Of a stretch of DNA of 64,000 nt, positions 17,630 through 28,813 are shown in pieces. Origin of the DNA: a phage. Location: NCBI GenBank assembly GCA_033648345.1, contig GCA_033648345.1_4121.1; one strand, written 5' to 3'. Position 1 is the first letter of the stretch; each line of letters opens with the position of its first letter. Position numbers and translations under genes: made by a program. Below the pieces are notes generated by a model, which searched no databases, had not been told where the DNA came from, and was given only the letters and a program-made list of their open reading frames with translations.

Positions 17630-17839
17630 ATGCTTACTGTACAGGATAAGATCGACATCTTAAAGGTTAATATGTATGTGATTGATGCCGTACCTGGTAA
17701 AGTATTTGCATACGATGACACTACTGTAAGCGATTTCTACTATAGCCAGGCCGTGGGGGATCTTTCTGTACAGTCGGTTATTGAAAACGTAGTTAATGCA
17801 GCGTATGAGCATTTACTTTCAAATAGTACTTGCAATTAG
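17630..17839 (+). CDS. Hypothetical protein (69 aa)
   Basis: ORF whose 3' end overlaps the next promoter. Confidence 0.55.
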   Translation: MLTVQDKIDILKVNMYVIDAVPGKVFAYDDTTVSDFYYSQAVGDLSVQSVIENVVNAAYEHLLSNSTCN

Positions 17840-17857
17840 TTTTTAAACGCGTATAAT
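17830..17857 (+). promoter_or_regulatory. Class-I early promoter
   Basis: TTGCAA-16-TATAAT; hairpin GGGGAGAAATGATTCTCCCC follows. Confidence 0.6.
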
Positions 17858-17908
17858 GTTTTACATGAAGGGGAGAAATGATTCTCCCCACTAATTAAGG
17901 AATATGAA

Positions 17909-18055
17909 ATGAAAGCATCAAAAAAGAGTAATACTAAGAAAGCACGTTCACCTTTCGCTGGGGTATTCCCTTTACGTTTCGTTGATGAAGTGGTTTCCTA
18001 CCCGCCGGGCCTTACTCCTGAGATGGTAGAAAGTTTGCGTAAATCTAAAAAATAG
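17909..18055 (+). CDS. Small basic protein (48 aa, absent from ORF track)
   Basis: Manual translation MKASKKSNTKKARSPFAG... with SD AAGGAA. Confidence 0.5.
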   Translation: MKASKKSNTKKARSPFAGVFPLRFVDEVVSYPPGLTPEMVESLRKSKK

Positions 18056-18058
18056 TAC

Positions 18059-18086
18059 TTGCAATTAGTTTTTAAACGCGTATAAT
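18059..18086 (+). promoter_or_regulatory. Class-I early promoter
   Basis: TTGCAA-16-TATAAT; hairpin at 18099-18118. Confidence 0.6.
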
Positions 18087-18136
18087 GTTTTACATAGAGG
18101 GGAGAAATGGTTCTCCCCAATAACAGGAGAATCAAA

Positions 18137-18289
18137 ATGAAACAATACAATGCTCGGTTTGATGTTACTATCGGCAACGGCAAAGGTCAATTTTCTTTCA
18201 GTACTCGCCGCAGTTATACAGAAAACTTCCTGCGTAATTGTGCACTGACCGCCGCACAAATTAAACATTACTTCCAGGCTAAAAAATGA
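18137..18289 (+). CDS. Small hypothetical protein (50 aa)
   Basis: Start moved to MKQYNARF after SD AGGAGAA. Confidence 0.6.
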   Translation: MKQYNARFDVTIGNGKGQFSFSTRRSYTENFLRNCALTAAQIKHYFQAKK

Positions 18290-18375
18290 AATCATTAGCT
18301 TATTACAGTTCAGCGGTGATCGGTGCATTGATCGCGGCATTGTTAGTAACCTATCTATTCTTTATGGTGATTTAA
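18286..18375 (+). CDS. Tiny hydrophobic membrane peptide (29 aa)
   Basis: ATGA-coupled ORF MKSLAYYSSAVIGALIAALLVTYLFFMVI; a single TM-length hydrophobic stretch. Confidence 0.45.
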   Translation: MKSLAYYSSAVIGALIAALLVTYLFFMVI

Positions 18376-18510
18376 ATGAATCCTAACGGTTTAATTTACA
18401 GTACTCCTAAAACGAAAGCAGATAAAGCGAAAGCACGTAAAGCGAAAGTAAAGGAGTACATTAAGCAAGGCATGACGCGAAAGGCGGCAGTACTGAAAGC
18501 TAAAAAATAA
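18376..18510 (+). CDS. Small Lys-rich basic protein (44 aa)
   Basis: Manual translation MNPNGLIYSTPKTKADKAKARKAKVKEY... Confidence 0.45.
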   Translation: MNPNGLIYSTPKTKADKAKARKAKVKEYIKQGMTRKAAVLKAKK

Positions 18511-18520
18511 ATGAAAAAAG

Positions 18521-18550
18521 TGGTTGACTTCGGTCAGCCATTTTGCTATT
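18521..18550 (+). terminator. Rho-independent terminator
   Basis: TGGTTGAC-TTCG-GTCAGCCA followed by TTTTGCTATTAT. Confidence 0.7.
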
Positions 18551-18645
18551 ATATATTCATTGAGAGATAGCTCACTAGCCCACCGGGTGCATAAGTGTAT
18601 CTATTATATAAGTATTGAGTACTGAAAACTATTTTTAAAAAGTAC

Positions 18646-18673
18646 TTGCAAACTATCTCAATAAGCGTATAAT
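18646..18673 (+). promoter_or_regulatory. Class-I early promoter
   Basis: TTGCAA-16-TATAAT. Confidence 0.6.
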
Positions 18674-18724
18674 GTTTTACATCGAAAGGGGAAACGGTTT
18701 CCCCTGGTAATAAGGAAACAAATC

Positions 18725-19066
18725 ATGACTATTGCAATTGCTCAATCTAACTTTGAAAATGAAATCATCGCCCAGGCACTGCGTTTAAATGATGGTCGGG
18801 CCGAAATTAATTACGGTTTCAATTCAGGCGGTTGTGAAAAATATCAGTACTTTGTAACTGCTGATGGCGGTGTCCTGGGCATCAATACCGTTATTGTAAA
18901 CATTCAGAAAATTAATTTCAATGATCCAGACGATAGCCAGTTTTACATTGTAGGCGTAGACGTGAACTATGAGGATGACTCACTAACTGATGATCACACT
19001 GGCGAGCGGTTAGAAAGTGCATACGGTGAAGATGATTATCAGTCCGGTCCAGAAGATTTCGAATAA
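18725..19066 (+). CDS. Hypothetical acidic protein (113 aa)
   Basis: ORF after promoter, hairpin GGGGAAACGGTTTCCCC and SD AAGGAA. Confidence 0.7.
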   Translation: MTIAIAQSNFENEIIAQALRLNDGRAEINYGFNSGGCEKYQYFVTADGGVLGINTVIVNIQKINFNDPDDSQFYIVGVDVNYEDDSLTDDHTGERLESAYGEDDYQSGPEDFE

Positions 19067-19079
19067 TATAAAAAATAGT

Positions 19080-19107
19080 TTGACAATAGATTATAGTACT
19101 GTATAAT
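19080..19107 (+). promoter_or_regulatory. Class-II early promoter
   Basis: TTGACA-16-TATAAT. Confidence 0.6.
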
Positions 19108-19157
19108 TAATTACATCAAGGGGAGAATAGTTCTCCCCAACTAAGAGGAAAAAGAAA

Positions 19158-19340
19158 ATGGCTGAATTAATCGCTCGGAATACAATTGCAGGCGTTGAAG
19201 ATGTAACATTATCATATGATTCAGATAAACAAGTTTACGTCGTTCGTTATGGTCTGATTGGTGTTAACGTTGATTATATTGATGAAGCCTTTGAAAAATA
19301 CTTTGAATTTATTAATATGGCTTATAATGATTATCGTTAA
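19158..19340 (+). CDS. Hypothetical early protein (60 aa)
   Basis: Promoter, hairpin GGGGAGAATAGTTCTCCCC, SD AAGAGGA. Confidence 0.65.
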   Translation: MAELIARNTIAGVEDVTLSYDSDKQVYVVRYGLIGVNVDYIDEAFEKYFEFINMAYNDYR

Positions 19341-19348
19341 AAAATAGT

Positions 19349-19376
19349 TTGACAATAGATTATAGTACTGTATAAT
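19349..19376 (+). promoter_or_regulatory. Class-II early promoter
   Basis: TTGACA-16-TATAAT. Confidence 0.6.
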
Positions 19377-19430
19377 AGTTTACATCAAGGGGAGAAAAAC
19401 TTCTCCCCACTAACAGAGAGAGAAAACAAA

Positions 19431-19643
19431 ATGGCTAATATCTGCACTGTACTGAAAAATGCAAAACAAGTTTTATTTTCTGATCACGATCATTTAAACA
19501 AGGATATTACGGGCGTTCGGAATATCAAAGATGTAAAAAGTGTTATGGGTATCTATTGCAATATGAAACGTGTCGGCACGTTCGGCGATAAAGTACTATA
19601 CCAGGCAGGGGATTATAACTTCACATTAACCATCATCAATTAA
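19431..19643 (+). CDS. Hypothetical early protein (70 aa)
   Basis: Promoter, hairpin GGGGAGAAAAACTTCTCCCC, SD. Confidence 0.65.
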   Translation: MANICTVLKNAKQVLFSDHDHLNKDITGVRNIKDVKSVMGIYCNMKRVGTFGDKVLYQAGDYNFTLTIIN

Positions 19644-19733
19644 AATATATTACCAGTACTATTGACAACGTTTGATAGTACTGTATAATAAGTTTTATAA
19701 ACAGTAGTTAACTTAACCTAAGAGAGAAACAAA

Positions 19734-19877
19734 ATGATCGCACTGGATTCATTCATCGACGCAGTACTGGCAAAAACTGGCGAGGATCTGACCGCAGAAC
19801 AATACGCGATGATCGAGCAATGTCAGCAAAACGGTAAATCGGTGAAAGATACTGTTAAGATTATCCGCAAGATGTAA
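19734..19877 (+). CDS. Small hypothetical protein (47 aa, absent from ORF track)
   Basis: Manual translation MIALDSFIDAVLAKTGEDL... after class-II promoter near 19663. Confidence 0.5.
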   Translation: MIALDSFIDAVLAKTGEDLTAEQYAMIEQCQQNGKSVKDTVKIIRKM

Positions 19878-19883
19878 TATTAT

Positions 19884-19912
19884 AGCCCACTGGTTAACGC
19901 TGGTGGGCTTTA
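19884..19912 (+). terminator. Terminator-like hairpin
   Basis: AGCCCAC-12 nt-GTGGGCT followed by TTTAATCATTT. Confidence 0.5.
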
Positions 19913-19976
19913 ATCATTTACCCTATACAATGCCAGTACTCAACCGTTTATCTCGTTAGAATGCGTTACAGGACGT

Positions 19977-20180
19977 TTGACAATGATTAGCATGAAATCA
20001 GTACAAAAACAAATAGAAACATTATCAAAAATTAAACGTAAACAATACTCCTTAGAATATACAATCAATGGTAACTATCATCTAATGAAAGAAAATAATT
20101 TTATAGTCATTGATGAATCATTGCAAATTATTAGTATAGTACTGAAAGCATTAATCAATGACAGAAAAAAATTAAAATAA
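19977..20180 (+). CDS. Hypothetical AT-rich ORF (67 aa)
   Basis: Track ORF; weak SD, so low confidence. Confidence 0.35.
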   Translation: MTMISMKSVQKQIETLSKIKRKQYSLEYTINGNYHLMKENNFIVIDESLQIISIVLKALINDRKKLK

Positions 20181-20183
20181 TTG

Positions 20184-20212
20184 TTGACATACAATGCCAG
20201 TACTGGCATAAT
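20184..20212 (+). promoter_or_regulatory. Promoter with conserved leader (candidate small RNA)
   Basis: TTGACA-17-CATAAT followed by ACATCAAGACGAGAACGTCACTAACCCATAGGGTGCACAAATGTAACTAT; no ORF for ~300 bp. Confidence 0.5.
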
Positions 20213-20274
20213 ACTTACATCAAGACGAGAACGTCACTAACCCATAGGGTGCACAAATGTAACTATATAATATC

Positions 20275-20347
20275 GATCAATAAATGATCAAAAAAGTACT
20301 GGATCAATTTAGCATAAGGAGTATAATTCTGATCAATTCTTGATCAA
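20275..20347. repeat. Cluster of five GATCAA sites including palindrome TTGATCAA
   Basis: GATCAA at 20275, 20286, 20302, 20331, 20342 upstream of the TraR-like gene. Confidence 0.7.
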
Positions 20348-20508
20348 AGGCAATATACGCAGTTGAATTTATATAGACAGTACAAAGGCGTTACTATCCG
20401 TGGTAATGCTGGTGGATATGTAGTATCATATGGTTTGAATAAGATTAGCACTAGTAGTATTATTGTAGCATTACAGTACTATAGTATTTTTATAATGAGG
20501 TTAAAATA

Positions 20509-20766
20509 ATGGCTGTTGGATTCGCGAAGGACGGGGCCGAGCAAGACGAGATTAACGCAGTGATTCAGGCCGCTGTAAACCACGCTAGAAAGCAAATTAA
20601 CGCACAAAGAGAATCACTGGTACATTGCCTCGACTGCGGCGATAAAATCCCTGAGAATCGACGCCAGGCCGTTATAGGGTGCATGTATTGTATTACTTGC
20701 CAGGAGGATCATGATAGTACTTTTAAAAGAGATCCGCGTAATTGTTGGCATAGATCTATGAGATAA
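20509..20766 (+). CDS. TraR/DksA-family C4 zinc-finger protein
   Basis: RKQINA...HCLDCGDKIPENRR...CMYCITCQ fits the TraR pattern C-x2-CG-x-IPE-x-RR ... C-x2-CQ. Confidence 0.8.
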   Translation: MAVGFAKDGAEQDEINAVIQAAVNHARKQINAQRESLVHCLDCGDKIPENRRQAVIGCMYCITCQEDHDSTFKRDPRNCWHRSMR

Positions 20767-20773
20767 AAAGTAA

Positions 20774-20801
20774 TTGACAGTACTGAAAGATAGTGTATAA
20801 T
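20774..20801 (+). promoter_or_regulatory. Early promoter with extended -10
   Basis: TTGACA-16-TGTATAAT. Confidence 0.6.
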
Positions 20802-20830
20802 GTTTTATATCTTAACTGAGGATTGAAATC

Positions 20831-21187
20831 ATGGGTATTCAACACATCACGCGTACTACTGACAATGGCGAGATCACTGGTTATCAGGTACAGGGCAAAG
20901 TAGCACAATTGCAGTACTGGTTTGTTAAACGTGGAATCATTGCACCGGATCTTGATTATGACCGTGTAGCGTTTATTGATTCTCTTTATGTTGATCCTGA
21001 TAGTCGGGGCAATGGTGAAGGTAACGAATTAATGAATGCCTTTATTGATGCCGCCGATGATTCAGATTGTATCATCTTAGAATGCGATACGGGAGAAGAT
21101 AACGCCTTTAATCTTAAAGAATGGTACGAAGGCTTCGGATTCGAGGTATTGATAGATAGTGAATATCCTATCATGATTTTATCATAG
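20831..21187 (+). CDS. Putative GNAT-like acetyltransferase (weak)
   Basis: VDPDSRGNGEGNELMNAF resembles the GNAT acetyl-CoA-binding motif; 118 aa. Confidence 0.45.
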   Translation: MGIQHITRTTDNGEITGYQVQGKVAQLQYWFVKRGIIAPDLDYDRVAFIDSLYVDPDSRGNGEGNELMNAFIDAADDSDCIILECDTGEDNAFNLKEWYEGFGFEVLIDSEYPIMILS

Positions 21188-21190
21188 TAC

Positions 21191-21219
21191 TTGCATTTAG
21201 TTTTCAGTACTGTTATAGT
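21191..21219 (+). promoter_or_regulatory. Early promoter
   Basis: TTGCAT-17-TATAGT; hairpin GGGGAAACATCTTCCCC follows. Confidence 0.5.
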
Positions 21220-21266
21220 ACTTGCATCAAGGGGAAACATCTTCCCCTACTAAGAGGAAATAAAAA

Positions 21267-21455
21267 ATGGAAAACTTATCAAGTATTTTAGTACAAGATG
21301 ATTTCGGTAATCCTGGAAGTGCTATCATTGTTCGGGGCAATAAAGCAACGTTTGTTATTGCTGGTGGACCCGTACAGCGTAGCATTAAAAATAATGCTGT
21401 TACCATTAATAATGTACGCTATCGCTTAGATAAAGAATTAATTCATAAACTGTAA
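21267..21455 (+). CDS. Hypothetical early protein (62 aa)
   Basis: ORF with SD AAGAGGAAA. Confidence 0.6.
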   Translation: MENLSSILVQDDFGNPGSAIIVRGNKATFVIAGGPVQRSIKNNAVTINNVRYRLDKELIHKL

Positions 21456-21482
21456 TATTAATTTAATAGAGGATAACAATAA

Positions 21483-21806
21483 ATGTACATTCATACTACT
21501 ATCACAAAGGAAGTCCGTTGCCAGTTCGAAAGTATTCCGGGCGTATGTTTCATCACTGGTACGTTTTCCCCTGGTGATCGTGATAATCCAGTACTGTTAC
21601 AATTACGCCATCCATCATGGGATAAAGCATTTGATCTACCGTTGAATGAATTCGCAACTACTGCTGAAAAGTACATTAAAAATATTCGCGAGAATGATCG
21701 ACTATTCATTAATGCTTTTAGTGATTCCGCGTTAAGCGAGATCCACGGCGTATTGGTTGCAATCATGGAATCAATGCAGAAAACTAAATTCAAACAAGGT
21801 GAATAA
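21483..21806 (+). CDS. Hypothetical protein (107 aa)
   Basis: ORF with SD AGAGGA. Confidence 0.6.
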   Translation: MYIHTTITKEVRCQFESIPGVCFITGTFSPGDRDNPVLLQLRHPSWDKAFDLPLNEFATTAEKYIKNIRENDRLFINAFSDSALSEIHGVLVAIMESMQKTKFKQGE

Positions 21807-21812
21807 AAACTA

Positions 21813-21840
21813 TTGACAATGCAATCCAGTACTGTATAAT
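21813..21840 (+). promoter_or_regulatory. Class-II early promoter
   Basis: TTGACA-16-TATAAT; hairpin GGGGAGAAATGATTCTCCCC follows. Confidence 0.6.
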
Positions 21841-21889
21841 AGTTTACATGAAGGGGAGAAATGATTCTCCCCACTAAGAGGAAAGAAAA

Positions 21890-22102
21890 ATGCAAGGTCA
21901 ACTAATCGTTCGTAAATGGTCTGATACTAACGAAAAACCGTGGGATGTACAATACATCGCCCCAAATGGTGAATCCAGATATCAACCAGGTGTAACGCAT
22001 AGTACTGAGCAATTCGCCGCCGCTCATCGCGAACGTCTGTTACAATCAATGCAGCAAGGTTCCGGTGAAAAATTCATTCAGGATCATTGGCTGAAAGATT
22101 AA
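21890..22102 (+). CDS. Hypothetical early protein (70 aa)
   Basis: ORF with SD AAGAGGAAA. Confidence 0.65.
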   Translation: MQGQLIVRKWSDTNEKPWDVQYIAPNGESRYQPGVTHSTEQFAAAHRERLLQSMQQGSGEKFIQDHWLKD

Positions 22103-22108
22103 AAAGTA

Positions 22109-22137
22109 CTTGCACTGTACTGAATAAAGTGTATAAT
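22109..22137 (+). promoter_or_regulatory. Class-I early promoter
   Basis: TTGCAC-17-TATAAT. Confidence 0.55.
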
Positions 22138-22188
22138 GTTTTATATCGGAAGGGGAATAGTTCCCCTCCGAACAAAGAGGAAAGTATA

Positions 22189-22362
22189 ATGGTCCAGGTA
22201 GAATTAACAGTACTGAAAGATCTGTTTTATCGGATTGGTACTACTGGCGAATATCCGAAGGGTGATAATGCAAAACTTTACGTATCACTCGACTTATGGC
22301 AACGCGAACAATTAGCAACGGCCTGGCGTAAAGGCAAAGCAGATCGAGAGGTGAAAGCATGA
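22189..22362 (+). CDS. Hypothetical early protein (57 aa)
   Basis: Start moved to MVQVEL after hairpin GGAAGGGGAATAGTTCCCCTCC and SD. Confidence 0.55.
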   Translation: MVQVELTVLKDLFYRIGTTGEYPKGDNAKLYVSLDLWQREQLATAWRKGKADREVKA

Positions 22363-22508
22363 AAGAATTCTTATTTGAAGTAGTGTTTCAAGGTGTCGGC
22401 AATAACCAACTGATTCGATCAAGTGGTTATAATGTTAACCAGGCATGGAATAACATTAAACAAATGTACCCGAACGCTATCACATATCGCAACCCGAAAG
22501 AAGTTTAA
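22359..22508 (+). CDS. Small hypothetical protein (49 aa, absent from ORF track)
   Basis: ATGA-coupled ORF MKEFLFEVVFQGVGNN... Confidence 0.45.
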   Translation: MKEFLFEVVFQGVGNNQLIRSSGYNVNQAWNNIKQMYPNAITYRNPKEV

Positions 22509-22518
22509 AAATAATTGA

Positions 22519-22555
22519 AAAAGGGATTGACTCCGGTCAGTCCCTTTGCTATTAT
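22519..22555 (+). terminator. Terminator hairpin with embedded promoter-like TTGACT
   Basis: AAGGGATTGAC-TCCG-GTCAGTCCCTT followed by TGCTATTATAT. Confidence 0.7.
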
Positions 22556-22655
22556 ATACGCATAGAAACAAATTAGCCCACCGGGTGCATAAATGTATCT
22601 ATTGTTTGCTGGTGGCTAGTACTATCAAGTACTGAAAACTATTTTTAAAAAGTAC

Positions 22656-22683
22656 TTGCAAAGTATCACGATAAGCGTATAAT
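22656..22683 (+). promoter_or_regulatory. Class-I promoter P1 with structured leader
   Basis: TTGCAA-16-TATAAT followed by ACATCAGGACGGGGAACGAAACAAGTAACCCCG... Confidence 0.55.
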
Positions 22684-22771
22684 GTTTTACATCAGGACGG
22701 GGAACGAAACAAGTAACCCCGTTAAGTAGTCCAGGAGTAAGACATACGAAAAACTCCCCTGATAAAATAGT

Positions 22772-22799
22772 TTGACAATAGAAAGTAAACGAGTATAAT
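22772..22799 (+). promoter_or_regulatory. Promoter P2
   Basis: TTGACA-16-TATAAT. Confidence 0.55.
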
Positions 22800-22832
22800 A
22801 CTTACATCAACCACTGATAAGGAAACATTAAA

Positions 22833-23108
22833 ATGCGGATTCTACTGACAGCTAACGAAATCGAACAAGTACTGACTACTAACCTGGAAGACTGGAAACG
22901 TGAAGCAGATATCCAGGCGGTTCAATGGCTTAACGATAAGTTAACGCCGGATGACTTAAGCAAGATTGTAGATCCTCAATTCTACGAAGATATTCACGAC
23001 ACCGCGTTAAGCGTCGAGGATGTACTTGATAAGCACTACATTGATACTGATTTACATGTTTACGGTCGTAAAAACTTTATCACTATTCACGACATTTACA
23101 ATACTTAA
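22833..23108 (+). CDS. Hypothetical acidic early protein (91 aa)
   Basis: ORF after tandem promoters; SD AAGGAAA. Confidence 0.7.
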   Translation: MRILLTANEIEQVLTTNLEDWKREADIQAVQWLNDKLTPDDLSKIVDPQFYEDIHDTALSVEDVLDKHYIDTDLHVYGRKNFITIHDIYNT

Positions 23109-23111
23109 GTA

Positions 23112-23139
23112 TTGACAAAGTATCTTAGTACTGTATAAT
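23112..23139 (+). promoter_or_regulatory. Class-II promoter (duplicated cassette, copy 1)
   Basis: TTGACA-16-TGTATAAT; whole ~90-bp cassette repeated at 23377..23468. Confidence 0.6.
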
Positions 23140-23196
23140 AGTTTACATCAAGTGAGGGGAAACGGTTCCCCTCCTAACAAAGAGAGAGAAATAAAA

Positions 23197-23379
23197 ATGG
23201 CTAAGTGCACTATCTGCAAGAAAGAAATAGTATTAGTTCCAAGTGCCCGTGAACGTGCCGCTCGGTTTGGTGGCAAAGCGTCAGACTATACAAAAATGTT
23301 TACTGCCCATACAGCTTGCCAGGTAGCAAAACGTTCACAAGAAAGCGTAGAATTAATGCGTAAACTTTCCAAAAAATAA
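23197..23379 (+). CDS. Small CxxC protein (60 aa)
   Basis: Start moved to MAKCTICKKE; second Cys pair near the C-terminus. Confidence 0.6.
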   Translation: MAKCTICKKEIVLVPSARERAARFGGKASDYTKMFTAHTACQVAKRSQESVELMRKLSKK

Positions 23380-23381
23380 GT

Positions 23382-23409
23382 ATTGACAAAGTATCTTAGT
23401 ACTGTATAA
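23382..23409 (+). promoter_or_regulatory. Class-II promoter (duplicated cassette, copy 2)
   Basis: Identical to the promoter at 23112. Confidence 0.6.
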
Positions 23410-23465
23410 TAGTTTACATCAAGTGAGGGGAAACGGTTCCCCTCCTAACAGAGAGAGAAATAAAA

Positions 23466-23789
23466 ATGGCTATGATCCTTACCCAGAAAGTGGAATTGAA
23501 AATTGTAACCTCCTTTGACATTAAAGTTAATCGGTGGACTGATTCACACGGCAATACTTACCACTCTTGCTACGTGTCTGCGTTAATTGGCGACCGCTGG
23601 GAAGACCTGGGACACGAAACCTTTACATACGGTTACGGTACGCAAGGCGAATACACTGGTTTGGAGATCATTAAAGAAACCGTTATAGGTTTCAACCCGA
23701 AAGAAAAAGTTATTCACCGCATCGAAAAAGAGATTAACAAAGAAATAACAGTTCGCTACTACGATGTAAAACGTAAGAAAGACATGTAA
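23466..23789 (+). CDS. Hypothetical early protein; paralog of 16606..16950
   Basis: Shared GNTY...YGYG...DVKRKKD motifs. Confidence 0.7.
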   Translation: MAMILTQKVELKIVTSFDIKVNRWTDSHGNTYHSCYVSALIGDRWEDLGHETFTYGYGTQGEYTGLEIIKETVIGFNPKEKVIHRIEKEINKEITVRYYDVKRKKDM

Positions 23790-23811
23790 TAGAATCCATT
23801 TAAAGTACTAT

Positions 23812-23840
23812 TTGACATTGCCCAGATAGTACTTTATAAT
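23812..23840 (+). promoter_or_regulatory. Class-II early promoter
   Basis: TTGACA-17-TATAAT. Confidence 0.6.
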
Positions 23841-23884
23841 AGACTCTAACTTGTAGTACTAACTCAACTAATAGGATGTATACC

Positions 23885-24280
23885 ATGATTACTAAATTCT
23901 ACGCTACCCGTGAAGCTGCCCGTATTGTTGCACGCGAGGAAGGAGCAGCATTTAAAGACATGGGAACGACAGCACCGAAAGGTCAACGCTGGGCCGTACA
24001 GTTCAAAGAAATCTCTGATATTGTGAATTCACCTGAGCCAGTACTGACAGCAGCAGAACTAAAACGAGCGGATATGCTGGCGGCAATACTTGACGCACAA
24101 GATGAGTTTATCGCTGATTCTGATATCAAAGTACAGGTAAACCACACCGCATGGACTCACGCGGATCACCTGGCAAACCTTAAGCGTCCAAGTGAACTGA
24201 TTCGCAACCAGAAAGAGATCCGACATGATCGTAAGGGTAATCGTGTAACAGTATACAGTAAACGCCGCCAGGTTATCTAA
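23885..24280 (+). CDS. Hypothetical protein; paralog of 10862..11128
   Basis: Start moved to MITKFYATREAARIVAREEG. Confidence 0.65.
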   Translation: MITKFYATREAARIVAREEGAAFKDMGTTAPKGQRWAVQFKEISDIVNSPEPVLTAAELKRADMLAAILDAQDEFIADSDIKVQVNHTAWTHADHLANLKRPSELIRNQKEIRHDRKGNRVTVYSKRRQVI

Positions 24281-24302
24281 TAACTTGCAGTACTAACAAC
24301 AC

Positions 24303-24328
24303 GGCGGGATCAGTTCCCGCCTTTTTTA
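24303..24328 (+). terminator. Rho-independent terminator
   Basis: GGCGGGATCAGTTCCCGCC followed by TTTTTT. Confidence 0.75.
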
Positions 24329-24341
24329 TAGGACAAACAAA

Positions 24342-24596
24342 ATGATTAAGGTTCAACTATATAAAGATAACATCTTACGGGTACACTATAAAGCACCGAA
24401 GAGAATCATCACAAAGGCCGTACAGCTTGCTAATGAGTTTATTAATGGTAACCTATTACCGAGGAAGTTAAGCAACGGGAAACTGCGTGTAATCGACGTG
24501 GACACTAACAACAGGATAGTAATCGAGAACACAGGAAAGATAAACCTTTATGAGCATCAACAATACAATAAGAAAATAAAACTAATATCACGTTGA
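24342..24596 (+). CDS. Hypothetical protein (84 aa)
   Basis: ORF with SD GGACAAACAAA. Confidence 0.55.
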   Translation: MIKVQLYKDNILRVHYKAPKRIITKAVQLANEFINGNLLPRKLSNGKLRVIDVDTNNRIVIENTGKINLYEHQQYNKKIKLISR

Positions 24597-24621
24597 CAGT
24601 ACTCAATTGTTTTAGTATTAT
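24593..24621 (+). promoter_or_regulatory. Promoter (duplicated cassette, copy 1)
   Basis: TTGACA-17-TATTAT; cassette repeated at 24869. Confidence 0.5.
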
Positions 24622-24649
24622 GTACACATACCAACACGGGAGAAACAAA

Positions 24650-24868
24650 ATGAAATTATCTAAAATCGAAAAGAAAACTATTGATGAAGCAGTTAAGCAC
24701 GGTTATACCTTTCGTAATGATTCACATTTTACCAATTATCAACAAGGGTATCGTACTATTAAAAAACTTATTGACAAAGGTTTATTAGTTGAAGTCAATA
24801 ACGGCAATGGCATTGAGTATCAACCAACACAGGACGCATTTTATTTTAAGAAATATAATATTATCTAA
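24650..24868 (+). CDS. Hypothetical protein (72 aa)
   Basis: Start moved to MKLSKIEKK after SD GGGAGAAA. Confidence 0.6.
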   Translation: MKLSKIEKKTIDEAVKHGYTFRNDSHFTNYQQGYRTIKKLIDKGLLVEVNNGNGIEYQPTQDAFYFKKYNII

Positions 24869-24898
24869 TTGACAGTACTCAAATGTTTTAGTACTATA
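24869..24898 (+). promoter_or_regulatory. Promoter (duplicated cassette, copy 2)
   Basis: TTGACA-18-TACTAT. Confidence 0.45.
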
Positions 24899-24926
24899 TG
24901 TACATACCAACACGGGGGAAAACAAA

Positions 24927-25169
24927 ATGATTACTTTAGAAAAACGTATCAAAGAAACTACATCGCTGGTGGAATTGTTAACAGTACTCAAATGTAAAAC
25001 AACACCATTCAGCACGCCGGACTTTATTAATATGGTTGATGTTAACGGTCGTTATCGCATTGCAGTAGAACATGGAACAGCGAAAGTATTCAGTACTAAA
25101 AACACTAAGGAAGTGATTCACGCGGTTAGTGTGAAAAAAGTGGTTGCCATTGATAGTAAAGTACTGTAA
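24927..25169 (+). CDS. Hypothetical protein (80 aa)
   Basis: ORF after duplicated promoter cassette. Confidence 0.6.
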   Translation: MITLEKRIKETTSLVELLTVLKCKTTPFSTPDFINMVDVNGRYRIAVEHGTAKVFSTKNTKEVIHAVSVKKVVAIDSKVL

Positions 25170-25200
25170 TATAGTTTCATTAACTCAAGGAGTAAATGCA

Positions 25201-25785
25201 ATGCGTAATTATACTAAATTCATCCGTACACTGTCAGAAATGGAAACCAACAAAGAGATCCTTTCAGCTTGTCGGTTAGCTGGCCTGGAGATCATCGGTG
25301 CTGGTTCTTCCCGTATAGTATTCGCTTTAAATGATCGGTTAGTGATTAAGGTCGCGAATTGTGATGCGGGTGTAGAACAAAATGAAACTGAATGTAAGGT
25401 ATGGAATTTTTTAGACTATGACCGCCCTCAGTTGAAACAGTACTTTGCAAAGGTGCATATGCATTTATGCGATCCTGATAATATGTTTATCGTTATGGAT
25501 CGGTTGAGTACTGCAAGCAAAGGCAGTGTGAAGCACGTTAACGCGTGCAATGAATTAAAGTACAATATTAAACGTAATGCAATCGAACGCCAGCACCGCT
25601 TTGCTGATGCACTACAACACGTTGATGATACATTATCAACACTAACGATAAGAGATATCAGAAAACAGAATATCGGCCAGGATCGTAATGGCCTTATTAA
25701 AGTACTTGATTACGGTTTAACCAGCAATATCTGGAATCAGTACTATAAAAAGCGTGATGTGGCAGCAAGTAAAGTAACACGATAA
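25201..25785 (+). CDS. Protein-kinase-like protein (Ser/Thr kinase fold motifs)
   Basis: Gly-rich loop IGAGSSRIV plus Lys VIKVA; catalytic-loop-like RDIRKQNIG; DYG in place of DFG. Start moved to MRNYTKF after SD AAGGAG. Confidence 0.5.
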   Translation: MRNYTKFIRTLSEMETNKEILSACRLAGLEIIGAGSSRIVFALNDRLVIKVANCDAGVEQNETECKVWNFLDYDRPQLKQYFAKVHMHLCDPDNMFIVMDRLSTASKGSVKHVNACNELKYNIKRNAIERQHRFADALQHVDDTLSTLTIRDIRKQNIGQDRNGLIKVLDYGLTSNIWNQYYKKRDVAASKVTR

Positions 25786-25796
25786 AAAAAGATTAA

Positions 25797-25833
25797 AAAA
25801 GGGATTGACTCCGGTCAGTCCCTTTGCTATTAT
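25797..25833 (+). terminator. Terminator hairpin with embedded promoter-like TTGACT
   Basis: Same element as 22519. Confidence 0.7.
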
Positions 25834-25925
25834 ATATTCATTGAGAGATAACTCACTGACCCATAGGGTGCGGAAGTGTATCTATTATATAAGCATTCAG
25901 TACTGAAAACTATTTTAAAAAAGTA

Positions 25926-25954
25926 CTTGCATTGTACTTAGAATCAAGTATAAT
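25926..25954 (+). promoter_or_regulatory. Class-I early promoter
   Basis: TTGCAT-17-TATAAT. Confidence 0.6.
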
Positions 25955-26008
25955 GTTTTATATCGAGAGGGGGAAATGGTTCTCCCTGGTACATTAAGGA
26001 ATAAAATC

Positions 26009-26416
26009 ATGACTACTACTAATCAAGCTCGGTCCATCGCCAACGATAAAAATCATGCTGCAATGGTCGCTGGTTACATTGAAGCTATGCAATTCAGTAC
26101 TGTACACAATGAGAACGGCGAATACCTGGAAGATTATGAATTATCAGAGCAAGCCCATCAAGCGGCAGTGATTGCATGTTCACGTTTCCTTGCTGTACAT
26201 GGTGAAGATATGGAAACAGTACAAAAACACCATAATCCTGATTATACTTATAGTCATGCAGGTCATGATCTCTTTCTTACTCGCGAAGGTCACGGCACTG
26301 GTTTTTGGGATCGTGATATCGGTCACTATGATGATATATTCACTAAGTACTGCGAAGAAATCAACGTTTGCGATCCCTATGTAGGCGATGATAATCTAAT
26401 CTATATGGGCGAATAA
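26009..26416 (+). CDS. Hypothetical His-rich protein (135 aa)
   Basis: Start moved to MTTTNQ after hairpin and SD AAGGAA. Confidence 0.65.
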   Translation: MTTTNQARSIANDKNHAAMVAGYIEAMQFSTVHNENGEYLEDYELSEQAHQAAVIACSRFLAVHGEDMETVQKHHNPDYTYSHAGHDLFLTREGHGTGFWDRDIGHYDDIFTKYCEEINVCDPYVGDDNLIYMGE

Positions 26417-26422
26417 AAGTAT

Positions 26423-26450
26423 TTGACAAAGTATATCAGTACTGTATAAT
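26423..26450 (+). promoter_or_regulatory. Class-II early promoter
   Basis: TTGACA-16-TATAAT. Confidence 0.6.
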
Positions 26451-26504
26451 AGTTTACATCAAGGGGAGAATAGTTCTCCCCCACCAATAAAAGGAAACAA
26501 AATT

Positions 26505-26777
26505 ATGTCCAGCTACTCCGCTACTATGATCATTAAAGATATGAACGGTAATCCTACTTCTGCTGGTGGATCATTTGGAAACATTAATTTAGATGGTCGG
26601 TTATCCATGCAATCAGCCATCGATGCAGCGAAAGAAGTTTTTAAGAATGAATGTACTGTAAGTAAGCTGGATTATATGGGATTCGCTATCGAAAAAACTA
26701 ATCGTTTTGTGAACTACAAAAATCCACTGATGATCGATACTAACCTGAAAGCAAACGAAGTGGGGTACTTATTATGA
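26505..26777 (+). CDS. Hypothetical protein (90 aa)
   Basis: ORF after hairpin GGGGAGAATAGTTCTCCCCC. Confidence 0.65.
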   Translation: MSSYSATMIIKDMNGNPTSAGGSFGNINLDGRLSMQSAIDAAKEVFKNECTVSKLDYMGFAIEKTNRFVNYKNPLMIDTNLKANEVGYLL

Positions 26778-26965
26778 CAGTTGAAGAAGTTAAAAAAGTA
26801 CTGGCAGTACTACGCTATCATAATCATTGCAAGGTGAAGAATGATCCTGATTATCTCGATTCATCCCTGGAAGAGGATACACTACAAGCAATAAGCCATA
26901 TGCAAAAAATGCTTAAGCGTATGACCGAAAAGAATAGGCCGGACTATATCGGAAATAAAATTTAA
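26774..26965 (+). CDS. Hypothetical protein (63 aa)
   Basis: ATGA-coupled ORF. Confidence 0.55.
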   Translation: MTVEEVKKVLAVLRYHNHCKVKNDPDYLDSSLEEDTLQAISHMQKMLKRMTEKNRPDYIGNKI

Positions 26966-26972
26966 AAAGTAC

Positions 26973-27000
26973 TTGCATTGTAGTTAGATTAACGTATAAT
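26973..27000 (+). promoter_or_regulatory. Class-I early promoter
   Basis: TTGCAT-16-TATAAT. Confidence 0.6.
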
Positions 27001-27052
27001 GTTTTATATCGAGAGGGGGAAATGGTTTCCCCTCAAGTCCAGGAGATACACC

Positions 27053-27316
27053 ATGAACACTATCGAAATCACTATCAATGCACACGTATACGACAACGTA
27101 GTACTGCAAACTACTATGACCGCTAATGATACCAGTACTTTGCGGAATACTGTTATTAGTGCCGTATGTGCTGCAATCGGTGATGTATCCCTGGAAAATG
27201 CAGAACATATCAACAACGGTTTCACTATGTGCAAGCGTGATAACGCAAAACATATCATCGTGGAAGGTTACGGCGGTGTAGAATTTAATGTTTATATGAA
27301 AAAAGTACTTGCATAA
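27053..27316 (+). CDS. Hypothetical protein (87 aa)
   Basis: Start moved to MNTIEIT after hairpin GAGGGGGAAATGGTTTCCCCTC and SD AGGAGA. Confidence 0.65.
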   Translation: MNTIEITINAHVYDNVVLQTTMTANDTSTLRNTVISAVCAAIGDVSLENAEHINNGFTMCKRDNAKHIIVEGYGGVEFNVYMKKVLA

Positions 27317-27335
27317 TAACTAAAACAAAGTATAA
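27308..27335 (+). promoter_or_regulatory. Class-I early promoter
   Basis: TTGCAT-16-TATAAT. Confidence 0.55.
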
Positions 27336-27383
27336 TGTTTTGCATAGGGGGAGATATCCTCCCCCACTAAAAGGAGTAATAAA

Positions 27384-27608
27384 ATGGCTAACTTTGATGA
27401 ACTGATGCGGGAAGTAGCTAACCTGGCAGAAGAGAAGAAATCATTCGATTCTATCTATAACACCGCTCACCGTGATTCAGTACTGGCATGTAACCAGGAT
27501 CAAAAAGATGAACTAATCGCCACCTATCATGAAGCATGGAAGTACTACCGACAATGGGAGAAAGAAGAAAGTGAGTCTACCATTGACGGCCTCAATAATC
27601 TAATCTAA
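27384..27608 (+). CDS. Hypothetical acidic protein (74 aa)
   Basis: ORF after hairpin GGGGGAGATATCCTCCCCC and SD AAGGAG. Confidence 0.65.
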   Translation: MANFDELMREVANLAEEKKSFDSIYNTAHRDSVLACNQDQKDELIATYHEAWKYYRQWEKEESESTIDGLNNLI

Positions 27609-27684
27609 AAGTTTTATTTCAGTACTATTGACATAGCTTGATAGTACTGATGTAATAACTTTACTAACTACAAGGGGAAACATA

Positions 27685-27942
27685 ATGGAACAGTTCACAC
27701 AATATCGGGTAAATCCACAAGCTATGGCCTACGTAGAAGACCATAAAACGTTACCAGTACTGCAACCAGTTAAAGGCCGTATCTATCGTGGCCTTGCCTG
27801 GGATACGGCCCAGGATGGATATAAAACCGTCGCCGTGGGGATGTATTGCGGGAATGGTGAATGGTTTGATCCTAGCAATCCGATTGCACTTGACAGTACT
27901 GAAAAAATGAAATGGGCCGACTACATCGAAGATATTTCATAA
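27685..27942 (+). CDS. Hypothetical protein (85 aa)
   Basis: ORF with upstream TTGACA promoter-like element. Confidence 0.6.
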   Translation: MEQFTQYRVNPQAMAYVEDHKTLPVLQPVKGRIYRGLAWDTAQDGYKTVAVGMYCGNGEWFDPSNPIALDSTEKMKWADYIEDIS

Positions 27943-27949
27943 AAACTAT

Positions 27950-27977
27950 TTGACAGTACTAACCAGTAATGTATAAT
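27950..27977 (+). promoter_or_regulatory. Class-II early promoter
   Basis: TTGACA-16-TATAAT. Confidence 0.6.
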
Positions 27978-28032
27978 GTTTTACATAGAGCGGGGGAATA
28001 GTTCTCCCGCCAATAGTTTGGAGTTAAACATT

Positions 28033-28233
28033 ATGTCTATCGCTATCGCCCTGGTTGAAGTACTGAAAGAAGCTAAAGCCAACCAGATCGACGTAAAGAT
28101 CCAGGAACTACAAAACGGCTTAATCGGCTGTACTTGTACCGCTGGTGGAGCGGCAGACTATCGAGAACACGAATCACTCGAATCACTGGTTCGGTATCTT
28201 ACCATGATCGTTGATGATTGGAGAATCATCTAA
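28033..28233 (+). CDS. Hypothetical protein (66 aa)
   Basis: Start moved to MSIAIALVEV after hairpin GCGGGGGAATAGTTCTCCCGC and SD GGAG. Confidence 0.6.
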   Translation: MSIAIALVEVLKEAKANQIDVKIQELQNGLIGCTCTAGGAADYREHESLESLVRYLTMIVDDWRII

Positions 28234-28247
28234 CAAAAAAAGAATAA

Positions 28248-28284
28248 AAAAGGGATTGACTCCGGTCAGTCCCTTTGCTATTAT
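28248..28284 (+). terminator. Terminator hairpin with embedded promoter-like TTGACT
   Basis: Same element as 22519. Confidence 0.7.
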
Positions 28285-28480
28285 ATACGCATAGACAAAA
28301 ACTAGCCCACAGGGTGCATAGGTGTATCTAAAATATATAGTTAATAACGGTGAGTAACTATCTGCTGGTGGAGTGAAAACTATTAATAAAAAAAACTATT
28401 GACAAAGTATATCAGTACTGCAATAATGTATCTCGTAGGGCGGCAATGGTGCGACGGCCCACAAAGTTAGGAGATTCAAA

Positions 28481-28813
28481 ATGAGTACTTCAATCGCTAT
28501 CGTTAAAGCTTTCATCCGTACCAATGTTTCATCTGTATTCATCGACGGTCTGGATCGGGAAGTAGAATACTCAATCATTATCGCACAGACTGCAAACGGT
28601 GCTCGGTATATCCTTAATAATAGTGAAGCAAATCACTACTACTTCACTAAAGCTACTGGCTTTAAACGCATCGATGCTGACGTAGTATACACTAAGATGA
28701 ATAAGCTGGTAGACAAGATTAACGCGAAAGGTACTATCGATTTACAGTACTGGACCGAAACCGATCCAGAATATGGATCTCACCGCTACCTGAATCCAGG
28801 TATTAAAATGTAA
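28481..28813 (+). CDS. Hypothetical protein (110 aa)
   Basis: ORF with SD AGGAGA. Confidence 0.65.
   Translation: MSTSIAIVKAFIRTNVSSVFIDGLDREVEYSIIIAQTANGARYILNNSEANHYYFTKATGFKRIDADVVYTKMNKLVDKINAKGTIDLQYWTETDPEYGSHRYLNPGIKM

What the first reader, a model, noticed from the sequence alone, without database searches (positions are those of the whole stretch)
20509..25785. Host-takeover-type trio: TraR/DksA-like zinc finger, GNAT-like protein and a minimal protein-kinase-like gene
The ORF at 20509 matches the TraR pattern (C-x2-CG-x-IPE-x-RR ... C-x2-CQ), a family that binds the RNA polymerase secondary channel. The ORF at 20831 has a GNAT-like Gly-rich motif. The ORF at 25201 (194 aa) has a Gly-rich loop with Lys (GAGSSRIVFAL..VIKVA), a catalytic-loop-like RDIRKQN and DYG replacing DFG, which would make it a very small kinase. 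Together with dozens of promoter-proximal small ORFs this looks like an early host-reprogramming and anti-defence region.
Basis: partly seen in the sequence, partly recalled or inferred. Interest (0 to 1): 0.55.

Follow-up and report, generated by a model that had tools for sequence, protein, structure and literature searches.

The report
Three early accessory genes, jumbo coliphage
The three genes are real: a YbiI/TraR-type zinc finger, a shortened GNAT acetyltransferase and a 194-residue minimal kinase-fold protein. They are separately transcribed early genes in the terminal-repeat region of a known jumbo E. coli phage and are already annotated this way in relatives; only the mini-kinase family is still biochemically unexplored.

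Summary
All three ORFs and the quoted motifs are present and under purifying selection. The window is an Asteriusvirus (PBECO4/121Q-like) jumbo coliphage. Window 8317-29734 corresponds to the ~21-kb direct terminal repeat of phage fEgEco12. It is an array of short + strand genes driven by consensus sigma-70 promoters, so it is very likely the host-RNAP-transcribed early region.

- **Zinc finger (20509):** a DksA/TraR-superfamily C4 zinc finger of the YbiI type. The Arg-Arg pair is kept, but the DxxDxA tip motif that TraR needs for function is absent.
- **GNAT (20831):** passes Pfam thresholds and has an intact R-x-x-G-x-G motif, but only the C-terminal half of the domain is matched.
- **Kinase candidate (25201):** folds confidently (pLDDT 92.5) as a protein-kinase-like domain. 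Lys50, Glu64, Asp152 and Asp170 are invariant. The protein ends 22 residues after DYG.

The mini-kinase belongs to a large unannotated phage family (phrog_4301). In distant members this domain is fused to, or sits next to, mini-GNATs and RNA-repair genes.

The three genes are not an operon. The GNAT is missing from some relatives and occurs alone in other phages. Relatives' GenBank records already carry these annotations. Host-takeover and anti-defence roles are inferred, not shown.

The parts
8317..29734 (+). Segment homologous to the direct terminal repeat (DTR) of Asteriusvirus fEgEco12. It is an array of short + strand genes with consensus sigma-70 promoters and is the presumed host-RNAP early region.
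   Evidence: blastn maps fEgEco12 position 1 to window 8317 and the record end (374,733) to window 29734. The DTR length of 20,993 bp was determined by PhageTerm and restriction digests (PMC13070987). GC is 0.36-0.40 here against 0.30-0.35 beyond 30 kb. All 12 perfect promoters lie inside it.
20266..20348 (+). Atypical upstream control region of the zinc-finger operon. Two copies of TATAAT-N3-GATCAAT-N3/4-(T)GATCAAA lie 56 nt apart, giving five GATC/TGATCAA sites in about 80 bp.
   Evidence: Sequence; direct repeat D2 and inverted repeats I1, I8, I18 and I19.
20363..20509 (+). 48-aa ORF with a TTG start whose stop codon overlaps the zinc-finger ATG (TAATG). It is probably translationally coupled to the zinc-finger gene.
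   Evidence: Annotated as g029, abutting g030, in fEgEco12.
20509..20766 (+). 85-aa DksA/TraR-superfamily C4 zinc-finger protein, YbiI-like subtype.
   Evidence: Pfam PF01258 E=3.9e-9. PDB: E. coli YbiI 2KGO E=6.4e-12, TraR E=7e-6. NCBIfam YbiI model 79.9 bits, below its cut-off of 96. phrog_54 E=5.7e-19. Alignment A6.
20774..20801 (+). Perfect sigma-70 consensus promoter (TTGACA-16-TATAAT) directly upstream of the GNAT gene.
20831..21187 (+). 118-aa shortened GNAT acetyltransferase with an intact R-x-x-G-x-G acetyl-CoA motif. Only about 41 residues precede the matched half of the domain.
   Evidence: Pfam Acetyltransf_1/7/10 all above cut-off, but only profile positions 53-116 of 116 are matched. 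phrog_1249. 100% amino-acid identity in 18 related phages.
25144..25172 (+). Degenerate copy of the local promoter module (TTGCCA-17-TAATAT, 9 of 12 matches), inside the 3' end of the upstream ORF. It is a possible own promoter for the kinase gene.
   Evidence: sequence comparison with neighbouring promoters (inference).
25201..25785 (+). 194-aa minimal protein-kinase-like (PKL) phosphotransferase. It has two N-terminal helices, a complete N-lobe, helices D and E, the catalytic loop and DYG, then one helix and the C-terminus.
25798..25825 (+). 12-bp-stem hairpin AAAGGGATTGACTCCGGTCAGTCCCTTT just after the kinase stop codon. It looks like a terminator but embeds a -35 (TTGACT-17-TATTAT). It is the first element of a ~200-nt intergenic module repeated at 18517, 22520 and 28249.
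   Evidence: alignment A5.

Best explanation
Window 20.5-25.8 kb is part of the early region of an Asteriusvirus (PBECO4/121Q-like) jumbo coliphage, carried in its direct terminal repeat. After DNA entry, host sigma-70 RNA polymerase reads an array of about 70 short genes from near-consensus promoters. Three of these genes are independent accessory cassettes, not an operon.

1. **Zinc finger.** An 85-aa YbiI-type member of the DksA/TraR zinc-finger superfamily. It most likely docks on RNA polymerase at the secondary-channel rim through its conserved Zn-ribbon and Arg-Arg pair. It would bias initiation away from short-lived host promoters such as rRNA promoters and towards the phage's consensus promoters, which have A/T-rich discriminators. 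Because it lacks the DxxDxA tip, its effect may be weaker than or different from TraR's.
2. **GNAT.** A 118-aa shortened GNAT that keeps the acetyl-CoA-binding half of the fold. It presumably acetylates an unknown host or phage target.
3. **Mini-kinase.** A 194-aa minimal kinase-fold enzyme with every ATP- and Mg-binding and catalytic residue conserved, but no activation segment and no F-I helices. It most likely transfers phosphate to host (or phage) proteins early in infection, in the manner of T7 gp0.7, although it is a different and much smaller family.

**Shown:** gene reality, fold and family assignments, terminal-repeat location, promoter architecture, independent distributions.
**Inferred:** early timing, RNAP binding, enzymatic activity, substrates, any anti-defence role.
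For: - **Genome identity:** 97% nucleotide identity to Ecwhy_1 and 96% to fEgEco12.
- **Terminal-repeat location:**. The three genes are duplicated in fEgEco12 as g030/g031/g044 and g644/g645/g658. The kinase ortholog also lies in the annotated terminal repeat of Klebsiella phage fENko-Kae01.
- **Promoters:** 12 perfect consensus promoters, all inside this segment.
- **Precedent in a relative:** PA5oct terminal-repeat genes are early, and infection is rifampicin-sensitive.
- **Zinc finger:**. Overexpressed YbiI rescues the amino-acid auxotrophy of a dksA deletion (data not shown in PMC2613031). TraR homologs from phages bind RNAP and inhibit rRNA promoters (PMC9239242).
- **GNAT:**
- **Kinase:**
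- **Purifying selection:**
- **Independence of the three genes:**
Against: - No expression, binding or activity data exist for any of the three proteins.
- The zinc finger lacks DxxDxA. D3N or D6N substitutions in that motif strongly reduce lambda Orf73 activity.
- The zinc finger also falls below the NCBIfam cut-offs for both the YbiI and TraR models.
- The GNAT lacks the usual N-terminal substrate-binding arm, and no structure model was made for it.
- In most of the wider family the catalytic-loop Asn is replaced by Ser.
- Distant members sit among RNA-repair genes, so a non-protein substrate is possible.
- The kinase's own promoter is weak (9 of 12 matches).
Confidence: 0.6

Rival explanations
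1. The mini-kinase is not a protein kinase. It would be an RNA, nucleotide or small-molecule kinase, like aminoglycoside phosphotransferases or the archaeal tRNA kinase ArkI, and in the wider family it would work with a mini-GNAT and tRNA/RNA-repair enzymes.
For: - There is no activation segment or peptide-binding C-lobe.
- One 2130-aa protein combines the domain with a GNAT, a 2'-5' RNA ligase domain and a CCA-adding/poly(A) polymerase domain.
- In 4 of 7 distant genomic contexts, PolyA_pol/CCA-adding, T4 Rnl1, Pnk-like AAA_33, NUDIX or HD genes lie within 6 kb.
- Mini-GNAT fusions exist (P0173, P0188), and a mini-GNAT gene lies directly downstream in L015.
Against: - Those contexts come from related environmental jumbo phages and are not independent samples. 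25%-identity relatives need not share a substrate.
- The Asteriusvirus subfamily and its 52%-identity relative sit in arrays of small early ORFs with no RNA-repair genes nearby.
- Profile-to-sequence matches are to protein kinases (MKK4, CDPK, BTK), and 6 of 49 members hit Pfam Pkinase.
- This subfamily keeps the D-x4-N catalytic loop typical of protein kinases.
Confidence: 0.25
2. The zinc-finger protein does not act on RNA polymerase. Like some intermediate-length DksA/TraR-superfamily proteins, it would share only the Zn-ribbon and have a different, unknown role.
For: - DxxDxA is absent from the whole YbiI-like clade, which instead has a conserved MA(V/S)G(F/W) N-terminus.
- PMC9239242 notes that not all C4 zinc-finger homologs function like DksA.
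- Its scores fall below the NCBIfam cut-offs.
Against: - R51-R52 match TraR R48/R49, the contacts with the rim helices and beta' Si3. The IPE-x-RR block is also conserved.
- YbiI overexpression rescues the dksA deletion auxotrophy.
- Homologs occur in 960 phage records, including lambda Orf73, which has been tested.
Confidence: 0.35
3. The 194-aa protein is a pseudokinase or ATP-binding scaffold with no catalytic turnover. Alternatively it acts only as a subunit of an oligomer, since many relatives are tandem arrays of 2-6 domains.
For: - The C-lobe is extremely truncated.
- The histidine and arginine of the canonical HRD motif and the catalytic-loop Lys are not conserved.
- Tandem multi-domain relatives exist.
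Against: - G35, K50, E64, D152, D170 and G172 are invariant across 95 sequences at 20-45% identity. That pattern is expected for active enzymes, not for pseudokinases.
Confidence: 0.12

Closest known systems
E. coli YbiI (PDB 2KGO) and YbiI-like zinc fingers of T4-like phages (e.g. Edwardsiella phage PEi26, 73% identity)
   Same: Same length class. Shares the MA(V/S)G(F/W) N-terminus, the helix followed by CxxC-N17-CxxC, and the IP-x-x-RR block.
   Different: The C-terminal tail differs: DPRNCWHRSMR instead of YNRRGSKDSQLR. The score is below the NCBIfam equivalog cut-off (79.9 against 96). YbiI itself has no established function.
F-plasmid TraR and phage lambda Orf73 (RNAP secondary-channel regulators)
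   Same: Shares the C4 Zn-ribbon, the Arg-Arg pair (TraR R48/R49), small size and carriage on a mobile element or phage.
   Different: Lacks the N-terminal DxxDxA motif required for TraR and Orf73 function. Has about 3 extra N-terminal residues and a different C-terminus.
Phage T7 gp0.7 kinase (T7K) and JSS1_004
   Same: An early phage gene with a protein-kinase-like fold. BFVD hits to T7-like phage kinases reach E about 1e-5 with TM about 0.55.
   Different: It is a different family. It has DYG rather than the DPV motif, no shut-off domain, and is about half the size. Asteriusviruses carry a separate T7K-like gene elsewhere in the genome (Sharanji WNN14432.1 against the ortholog WNN14351.1).
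Minimal and atypical PKL kinases: Rio2, Bud32/PRPK, archaeal ArkI, Legionella Lpg2603, APH(2'')
   Different: Only 110-139 residues superpose, at 12-19% identity. Nothing follows DYG except one helix. It has its own two-helix N-terminal extension. OspG/NleH and HopBF1 are about 200-aa minimal effector kinases that I recall from memory; they were not among the listed hits and were not tested.
GNAT superfamily (Pfam Acetyltransf_1/7/10); minimal GNATs of the COG2388/PF14542 type
   Same: Shares the beta4-alpha3-beta5-alpha4-beta6 half with R-x-x-G-x-G. There is a weak PF14542 match at E=0.0011.
   Different: About 40-60 residues shorter than typical GNATs. The alpha1-alpha2 arm is not detectable. 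Close homologs are found in only 25 phage records.
Early genes in long terminal repeats of related jumbo phages (PA5oct)
   Same: Shares the long direct terminal repeat packed with short genes of unknown function, transcribed early by host RNAP.
   Different: Timing has not been measured for Asteriusviruses. This segment has an unusually regular architecture of consensus promoter plus 5'-UTR hairpin.

Membership tests
DksA/TraR C4 zinc-finger superfamily (PF01258) | CxxC-N17-CxxC zinc ribbon scoring above the Pfam gathering threshold | tested here: met
   C40, C43, C61 and C64 are present. 36.8 bits against a cut-off of 24.9. These residues are invariant in alignment A6.
TraR-like functional group (TraR, lambda Orf73) | N-terminal DxxDxA motif that contacts the RNAP active-site region | tested here: not met
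   The N-terminus is MAVGFAKDGAEQDE. With TraR and Orf73 in the alignment, no DxxDxA register exists. The same is true of the whole YbiI-like clade. The requirement for the motif is documented in PMC9239242.
TraR-like functional group (TraR, lambda Orf73) | Arg-Arg pair (TraR R48/R49) contacting the rim helices and beta' Si3 | tested here: met
   R51 and R52 are invariant in A6. Their role is described.
TraR-like functional group (TraR, lambda Orf73) | C-terminal helix contacting beta Si1 | tested here: inconclusive
   20 residues follow CxxCQ, but they contain Pro76 and are unlike TraR. No structure model was made.
YbiI equivalog (NCBIfam NF008243) | Score above the curated cut-off | tested here: not met
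   79.9 bits against 96. It is the best-scoring model, covering residues 1-73.
GNAT acetyltransferases | Pfam GNAT models above the gathering threshold, and the Q/R-x-x-G-x-G/A acetyl-CoA motif | tested here: met
   Three models score above cut-off. R59-G-N-G62-E-G64 is read directly from the sequence.
GNAT acetyltransferases | Complete fold including the N-terminal beta1-alpha1-alpha2-beta2-beta3 arm | tested here: inconclusive
   Only profile positions 53-116 of 116 are matched, and 41 residues precede them.
GNAT acetyltransferases | Acetyl transfer from acetyl-CoA | not testable with these tools
   Needs biochemistry.
Eukaryotic-like protein kinases (Pfam Pkinase) | Score above the Pfam gathering threshold | tested here: not met
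   17.0 bits against 31.7, E=0.0041. 6 of 49 family members hit at E<=0.01, the best at 5.7e-6.
Protein-kinase-like (PKL) fold | Bilobal fold, with an N-lobe beta-sheet plus helix C and a C-lobe carrying the catalytic and Mg-binding loops | tested here: met
Protein-kinase-like (PKL) fold | Catalytic residues: Gly-rich loop, beta3 Lys, helix-C Glu, catalytic Asp, DFG Asp | tested here: met
   G33/G35, K50, E64, D152 and D170-Y-G172. All are invariant except G33.
Eukaryotic-like protein kinases (Pfam Pkinase) | HRD-x-K-x-x-N catalytic loop with conserved Lys and Asn | tested here: inconclusive
   The loop here is R-D152-I-R-K-Q-N157. Asn is at D+5 in this subfamily but is Ser in most of the wider family. 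The His, Arg and D+2 Lys are not conserved.
Eukaryotic-like protein kinases (Pfam Pkinase) | Activation segment/APE motif and helices F-I | tested here: not met
   The protein ends 22 residues after DYG. Only one helix (175-183) follows.
T7 gp0.7 (T7K) kinase family | DPV-type DFG replacement and close homology to T7K | tested here: not met
   The motif here is DYG. T7-like kinases match only at fold level, E about 1e-5. The T7K-like gene of these phages is a different locus.

The most novel reading that the evidence does not exclude
The 194-aa protein may represent a large, unannotated phage family of minimal kinase-fold enzymes. The family corresponds to phrog_4301, has more than 2,000 50%-identity clusters and has no Pfam model. 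It may work with a mini-GNAT as a two-enzyme module: the two are fused in some phages, adjacent in others, and separated here. Its true targets may be tRNA/RNA or RNA-repair and defence components rather than generic host proteins. That would be a new phage strategy combining phosphorylation and acetylation.
Probability: 0.15. Interest if true: 0.7.

Novelty: new variant of a known kind. Interest (0 to 1): 0.38.

Why it matters
The same three genes are already labelled 'DksA-like zinc finger', 'GNAT' and 'Ser/Thr kinase' in GenBank records of close relatives. The Sharanji genome paper already lists the kinase ortholog as a protein kinase of unknown function.

Three points add value:
- **Location.** The genes sit in the terminal-repeat early region, which gives a concrete timing hypothesis that can be tested.
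- **Zinc finger.** It is YbiI-type and lacks the TraR tip motif, so its effect on RNA polymerase cannot be assumed.
- **Mini-kinase.** It belongs to a very large uncharacterised phage family with all catalytic residues retained and one of the smallest kinase cores. Its recurrent fusion or adjacency to mini-GNATs and RNA-repair genes is a testable lead on substrate.

T7 kinase was recently shown to disarm bacterial defences, which makes a second, unrelated early phage kinase family worth an experiment.

Tried and rejected
- **First structure prediction.** The run with 13 close homologs was unusable (pLDDT 48). It was superseded by the 95-sequence run.
- **afdb50 fold library.** Not available.
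- **Paralogs of the mini-kinase in the window.** None. Only one hit came from an HMM search of all six-frame ORFs. The many ~190-aa ORFs at 38-64 kb are not related to it, and are mostly unrelated to each other by BLAST.
- **GNAT homolog search in the 5.8-billion-protein set.** It returned only near-identical orthologs, so no deep alignment or fusion census could start from the GNAT side.
- **PADLOC.** Only weak hits of the kinase to the PD-T4-6 Ser/Thr kinase models (E about 7e-4). This adds nothing beyond 'kinase-like'.
- **Ser/Thr/Tyr depletion in terminal-repeat proteins**, a signature reported for phages with the promiscuous T7 kinase. The fractions were 17.1% against 19.0%, p=0.025. The comparison is confounded by GC content (Tyr codons are AT-rich), so I treat it as inconclusive.
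- **Rfam scan of 8-31 kb.** No match at E<=0.1.
- **DxxDxA motif.** A three-sequence MAFFT alignment and a spacing argument gave conflicting registers. This was resolved only by the eight-sequence alignment including lambda Orf73.
- **Operon idea.** Rejected, because each gene or gene pair has its own promoter and the three genes have independent distributions.

Full report
**What the window is.** Megablast of 20300-26000 finds 60 phage records. Seventeen cover at least 80% of the query, at 92-97% identity. All are ~350-385-kb Asteriusvirus (PBECO4/121Q-like) jumbo coliphages such as Ecwhy_1, WPEC3 and fEgEco12. Several of these records already annotate the three genes. fEgEco12 calls them 'DksA-like zinc-finger protein', 'GNAT family N-acetyltransferase' and 'serine/threonine-protein kinase PRP4'; Turkey5 has similar labels. 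The Sharanji genome paper names the ortholog WNN14351.1 as 'another protein kinase, which function is unknown'.

**Position in the genome.**
- The physical ends of fEgEco12 were determined with PhageTerm and restriction digests. It has a 20,993-bp direct terminal repeat (PMC13070987).
- All three genes lie inside that repeat and are therefore present twice in the record, as g030/g031/g044 and g644/g645/g658.
- blastn maps fEgEco12 position 1 to window 8317 and the record's last base to window 29734. Window 8317-29734 is therefore the terminal-repeat equivalent, and the window comes from an assembly in which the repeat is collapsed.
- This segment stands out in composition: GC is 0.36-0.40, against 0.30-0.35 further on, and the GC-skew sign changes at about 8 kb.
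- It contains all 12 perfect TTGACA-N16-TATAAT promoters of the window, all on the + strand, against 0.06 expected.
- In the related jumbo phage PA5oct, the long terminal repeat carries genes that are highly transcribed early, and infection is rifampicin-sensitive (PMC7318152).
- The kinase ortholog of Klebsiella phage fENko-Kae01 (39% identity) also lies in an annotated terminal repeat.
- Early transcription by host RNAP is thus a well-founded inference, but it has not been measured for this phage.

**Zinc finger (20509-20766).**
- Pfam zf-dskA_traR is passed at E=3.9e-9.
- The closest solved structure is E. coli YbiI (2KGO, E=6.4e-12), followed by TraR (E=7e-6).
- The NCBIfam YbiI model scores best but falls below its cut-off (79.9 against 96).
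- tblastn finds homologs in 960 phage records. These include T4-like phages at 56-73% identity and lambda Orf73.
- An eight-sequence alignment with YbiI, four phage homologs, lambda Orf73 and TraR shows the four Cys and R51-R52 as invariant; R51-R52 correspond to TraR R48/R49. The YbiI-like clade, including this protein, has MA(V/S)G(F/W)... at the N-terminus and no DxxDxA motif.
- That motif matters: D3N or D6N substitutions strongly reduce lambda Orf73 activity (PMC9239242). The same paper warns that not all C4 zinc-finger homologs act like DksA.
- On the other side, YbiI overexpression was reported to rescue the auxotrophy of a dksA deletion (data not shown in PMC2613031).
- Membership of the superfamily is therefore established. 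TraR-like function is plausible but unproven.
- The gene is coupled to a 48-aa upstream ORF by a TAATG overlap. It is preceded by an unusual control region with two TATAAT-GATCAA-GATCAA repeats.

**GNAT (20831-21187).**
- Three Pfam GNAT models are passed, and R59-x-x-G62-x-G64 is intact. The match covers only the C-terminal half of the domain model, positions 53-116 of 116.
- The protein is 100% conserved in 18 relatives despite synonymous DNA changes.
- It is found in only 25 phage records and is absent at this position in Sharanji and G17.
- It occurs as a lone cassette in a similar small-gene array of the 146-kb Shigella phage SF1-1.
- It has its own perfect promoter.

**Kinase candidate (25201-25785).**
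- Alone it is sub-threshold for Pfam Pkinase and for PDB sequence search.
- Thirteen close clusters show invariant G33, G35, K50, E64, D152, D170 and G172.
- An exhaustive profile search finds 2,072 representatives at E<=1e-3.
- A word-indexed search with a 49-sequence profile finds 576 clusters at E<=1e-5. Of the 120 listed, only one carries a precomputed Pfam domain, and that is a GNAT.
- The PHROG family is phrog_4301, 'unknown function'.
- The family profile matches 836 solved kinases, the best being MKK4 at E=4.3e-6.
- With 95 sequences, AlphaFold2 gives pLDDT 92.5 and pTM 0.89. The model has two N-terminal helices, five N-lobe strands with helix C, helices D and E, the catalytic loop, DYG, then one helix and the end of the protein.
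- In BFVD the nearest models are the RaK2, CBB and PBECO4 orthologs; the PBECO4 one is named 'Protein kinase domain-containing protein'. T7-like kinases appear only at E about 1e-5.
- It is distinct from the T7K-like kinase that these phages also encode.

**Are the three genes linked?**
- In this phage they are not. They are separate transcription units with independent distributions.
- In distant members of the mini-kinase family there is a link. P0173 and P0188 carry an N-terminal mini-GNAT. The P0173 mini-GNAT matches the window GNAT at E=9e-9.
- A 2130-aa protein combines the domain with a GNAT, a 2'-5' RNA ligase domain and a CCA-adding/poly(A) polymerase domain.
- A BFVD hit is a 'NAT_SF domain' protein.
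- In locus L015 a mini-GNAT gene starts 4 nt after the kinase-like gene.
- Four of seven distant contexts contain CCA-adding/PolyA_pol, Rnl1, Pnk-like, NUDIX or HD genes within 6 kb.
- Other fusions include a tape-measure-like giant protein and tandem arrays of 2-6 domains.
- These observations are leads for a non-protein substrate or a kinase-GNAT partnership. They come from few and related genomes.

**Verdict.** The zinc finger and the GNAT are ordinary new members of known families. The mini-kinase is a strongly truncated variant of the kinase fold from a large uncharacterised phage family. Host-takeover and anti-defence roles remain hypotheses.

Noticed in passing
whole window, e.g. 2925-63123; densest in 8268-29453: The palindrome AGTACT occurs 286 times in 64 kb, about 13 times the base-composition expectation. 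CAGTACTG occurs 64 times against 0.66 expected. Sites lie in all three codon phases inside ORFs, in promoter spacers (cAGTACTGTATAAT) and next to -35 boxes. GAGTACTC has no copies. Several other palindromic hexamers are absent altogether (AGCGCT, AGGCCT, CAGCTG, CCATGG). The excess is shared by fEgEco12 and by a 52%-identity relative contig (L004), but not by unrelated jumbo-phage contigs. The cause is unknown. It could be a binding site for a phage DNA-binding protein or a promoter element. No paper in the library combines AGTACT with 'jumbo phage'.
   Followed up: partly
10501-28881, + strand (about 21 sites, e.g. 21231, 21853, 22152, 23156, 23427, 25970): A conserved 5'-UTR stem-loop GGGGA(G/A)..(T/C)TCCCC lies between the consensus promoter and the ribosome-binding site of many terminal-repeat genes (expected 0.2 sites). 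It probably stabilises the mRNA or regulates translation. None of the three genes under study has it.
   Followed up: partly
18517-18720, 22520-22723, 25798-26001, 28249-28452; partial inverted copy near 11660: A ~200-nt intergenic module is repeated four times. It consists of an A-run, a 12-bp-stem hairpin that embeds a -35 (TTGACT-17-TATTAT), a conserved CCCAC(C/A)GGGTGC element, an A/T-rich block and a second promoter (TTGCAA-16-TATAAT). It could be a terminator-promoter junction or a small-RNA gene. There was no Rfam match.
   Followed up: partly
20266-20348: Five GATC/TGATCAA sites lie in about 80 bp, arranged as two TATAAT-GATCAA-GATCAA repeats upstream of the zinc-finger operon. They may be an operator or a Dam/SeqA-sensitive control region, unlike the other promoters in the array.
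   Followed up: no
23106-23203 and 23377-23472: A nearly identical promoter plus 5'-UTR cassette is duplicated in front of two unrelated small genes. This suggests the regulatory module moves or is copied independently of the coding sequences.
   Followed up: no
21483-21806: This 107-aa ORF matches Pfam DUF7247 above threshold (32.4 bits against 27) and phrog_3566. It is one of the few neighbours with any family assignment.
   Followed up: no
23197-23379: This 60-aa ORF has a CxxC...HxxC pattern (MAKCTICKKE...HTACQ). It may be a small zinc-binding protein. The only Pfam hit is weak (zf-FCS, E=0.1).
   Followed up: no
loci of distant mini-kinase relatives (P0218/P0252 N-termini; P0133; P0021): The mini-kinase domain also occurs in other architectures. 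It follows an N-terminal region with a ParB/Srx-like 'DGHHR' motif (motif recognised by eye only). It sits inside a 3248-aa protein with a phage minor-tail/tape-measure domain, which could mean delivery with the DNA. It also forms tandem arrays of up to six domains.
   Followed up: partly
window about 13.6-13.9 kb (fEgEco12 g10, record 5284-5583): The fEgEco12 record annotates a 'protein spackle' homolog in the same terminal repeat. In T4, Spackle is a superinfection-exclusion lysozyme inhibitor. This is consistent with an early or accessory gene set, but I did not verify the annotation.
   Followed up: no
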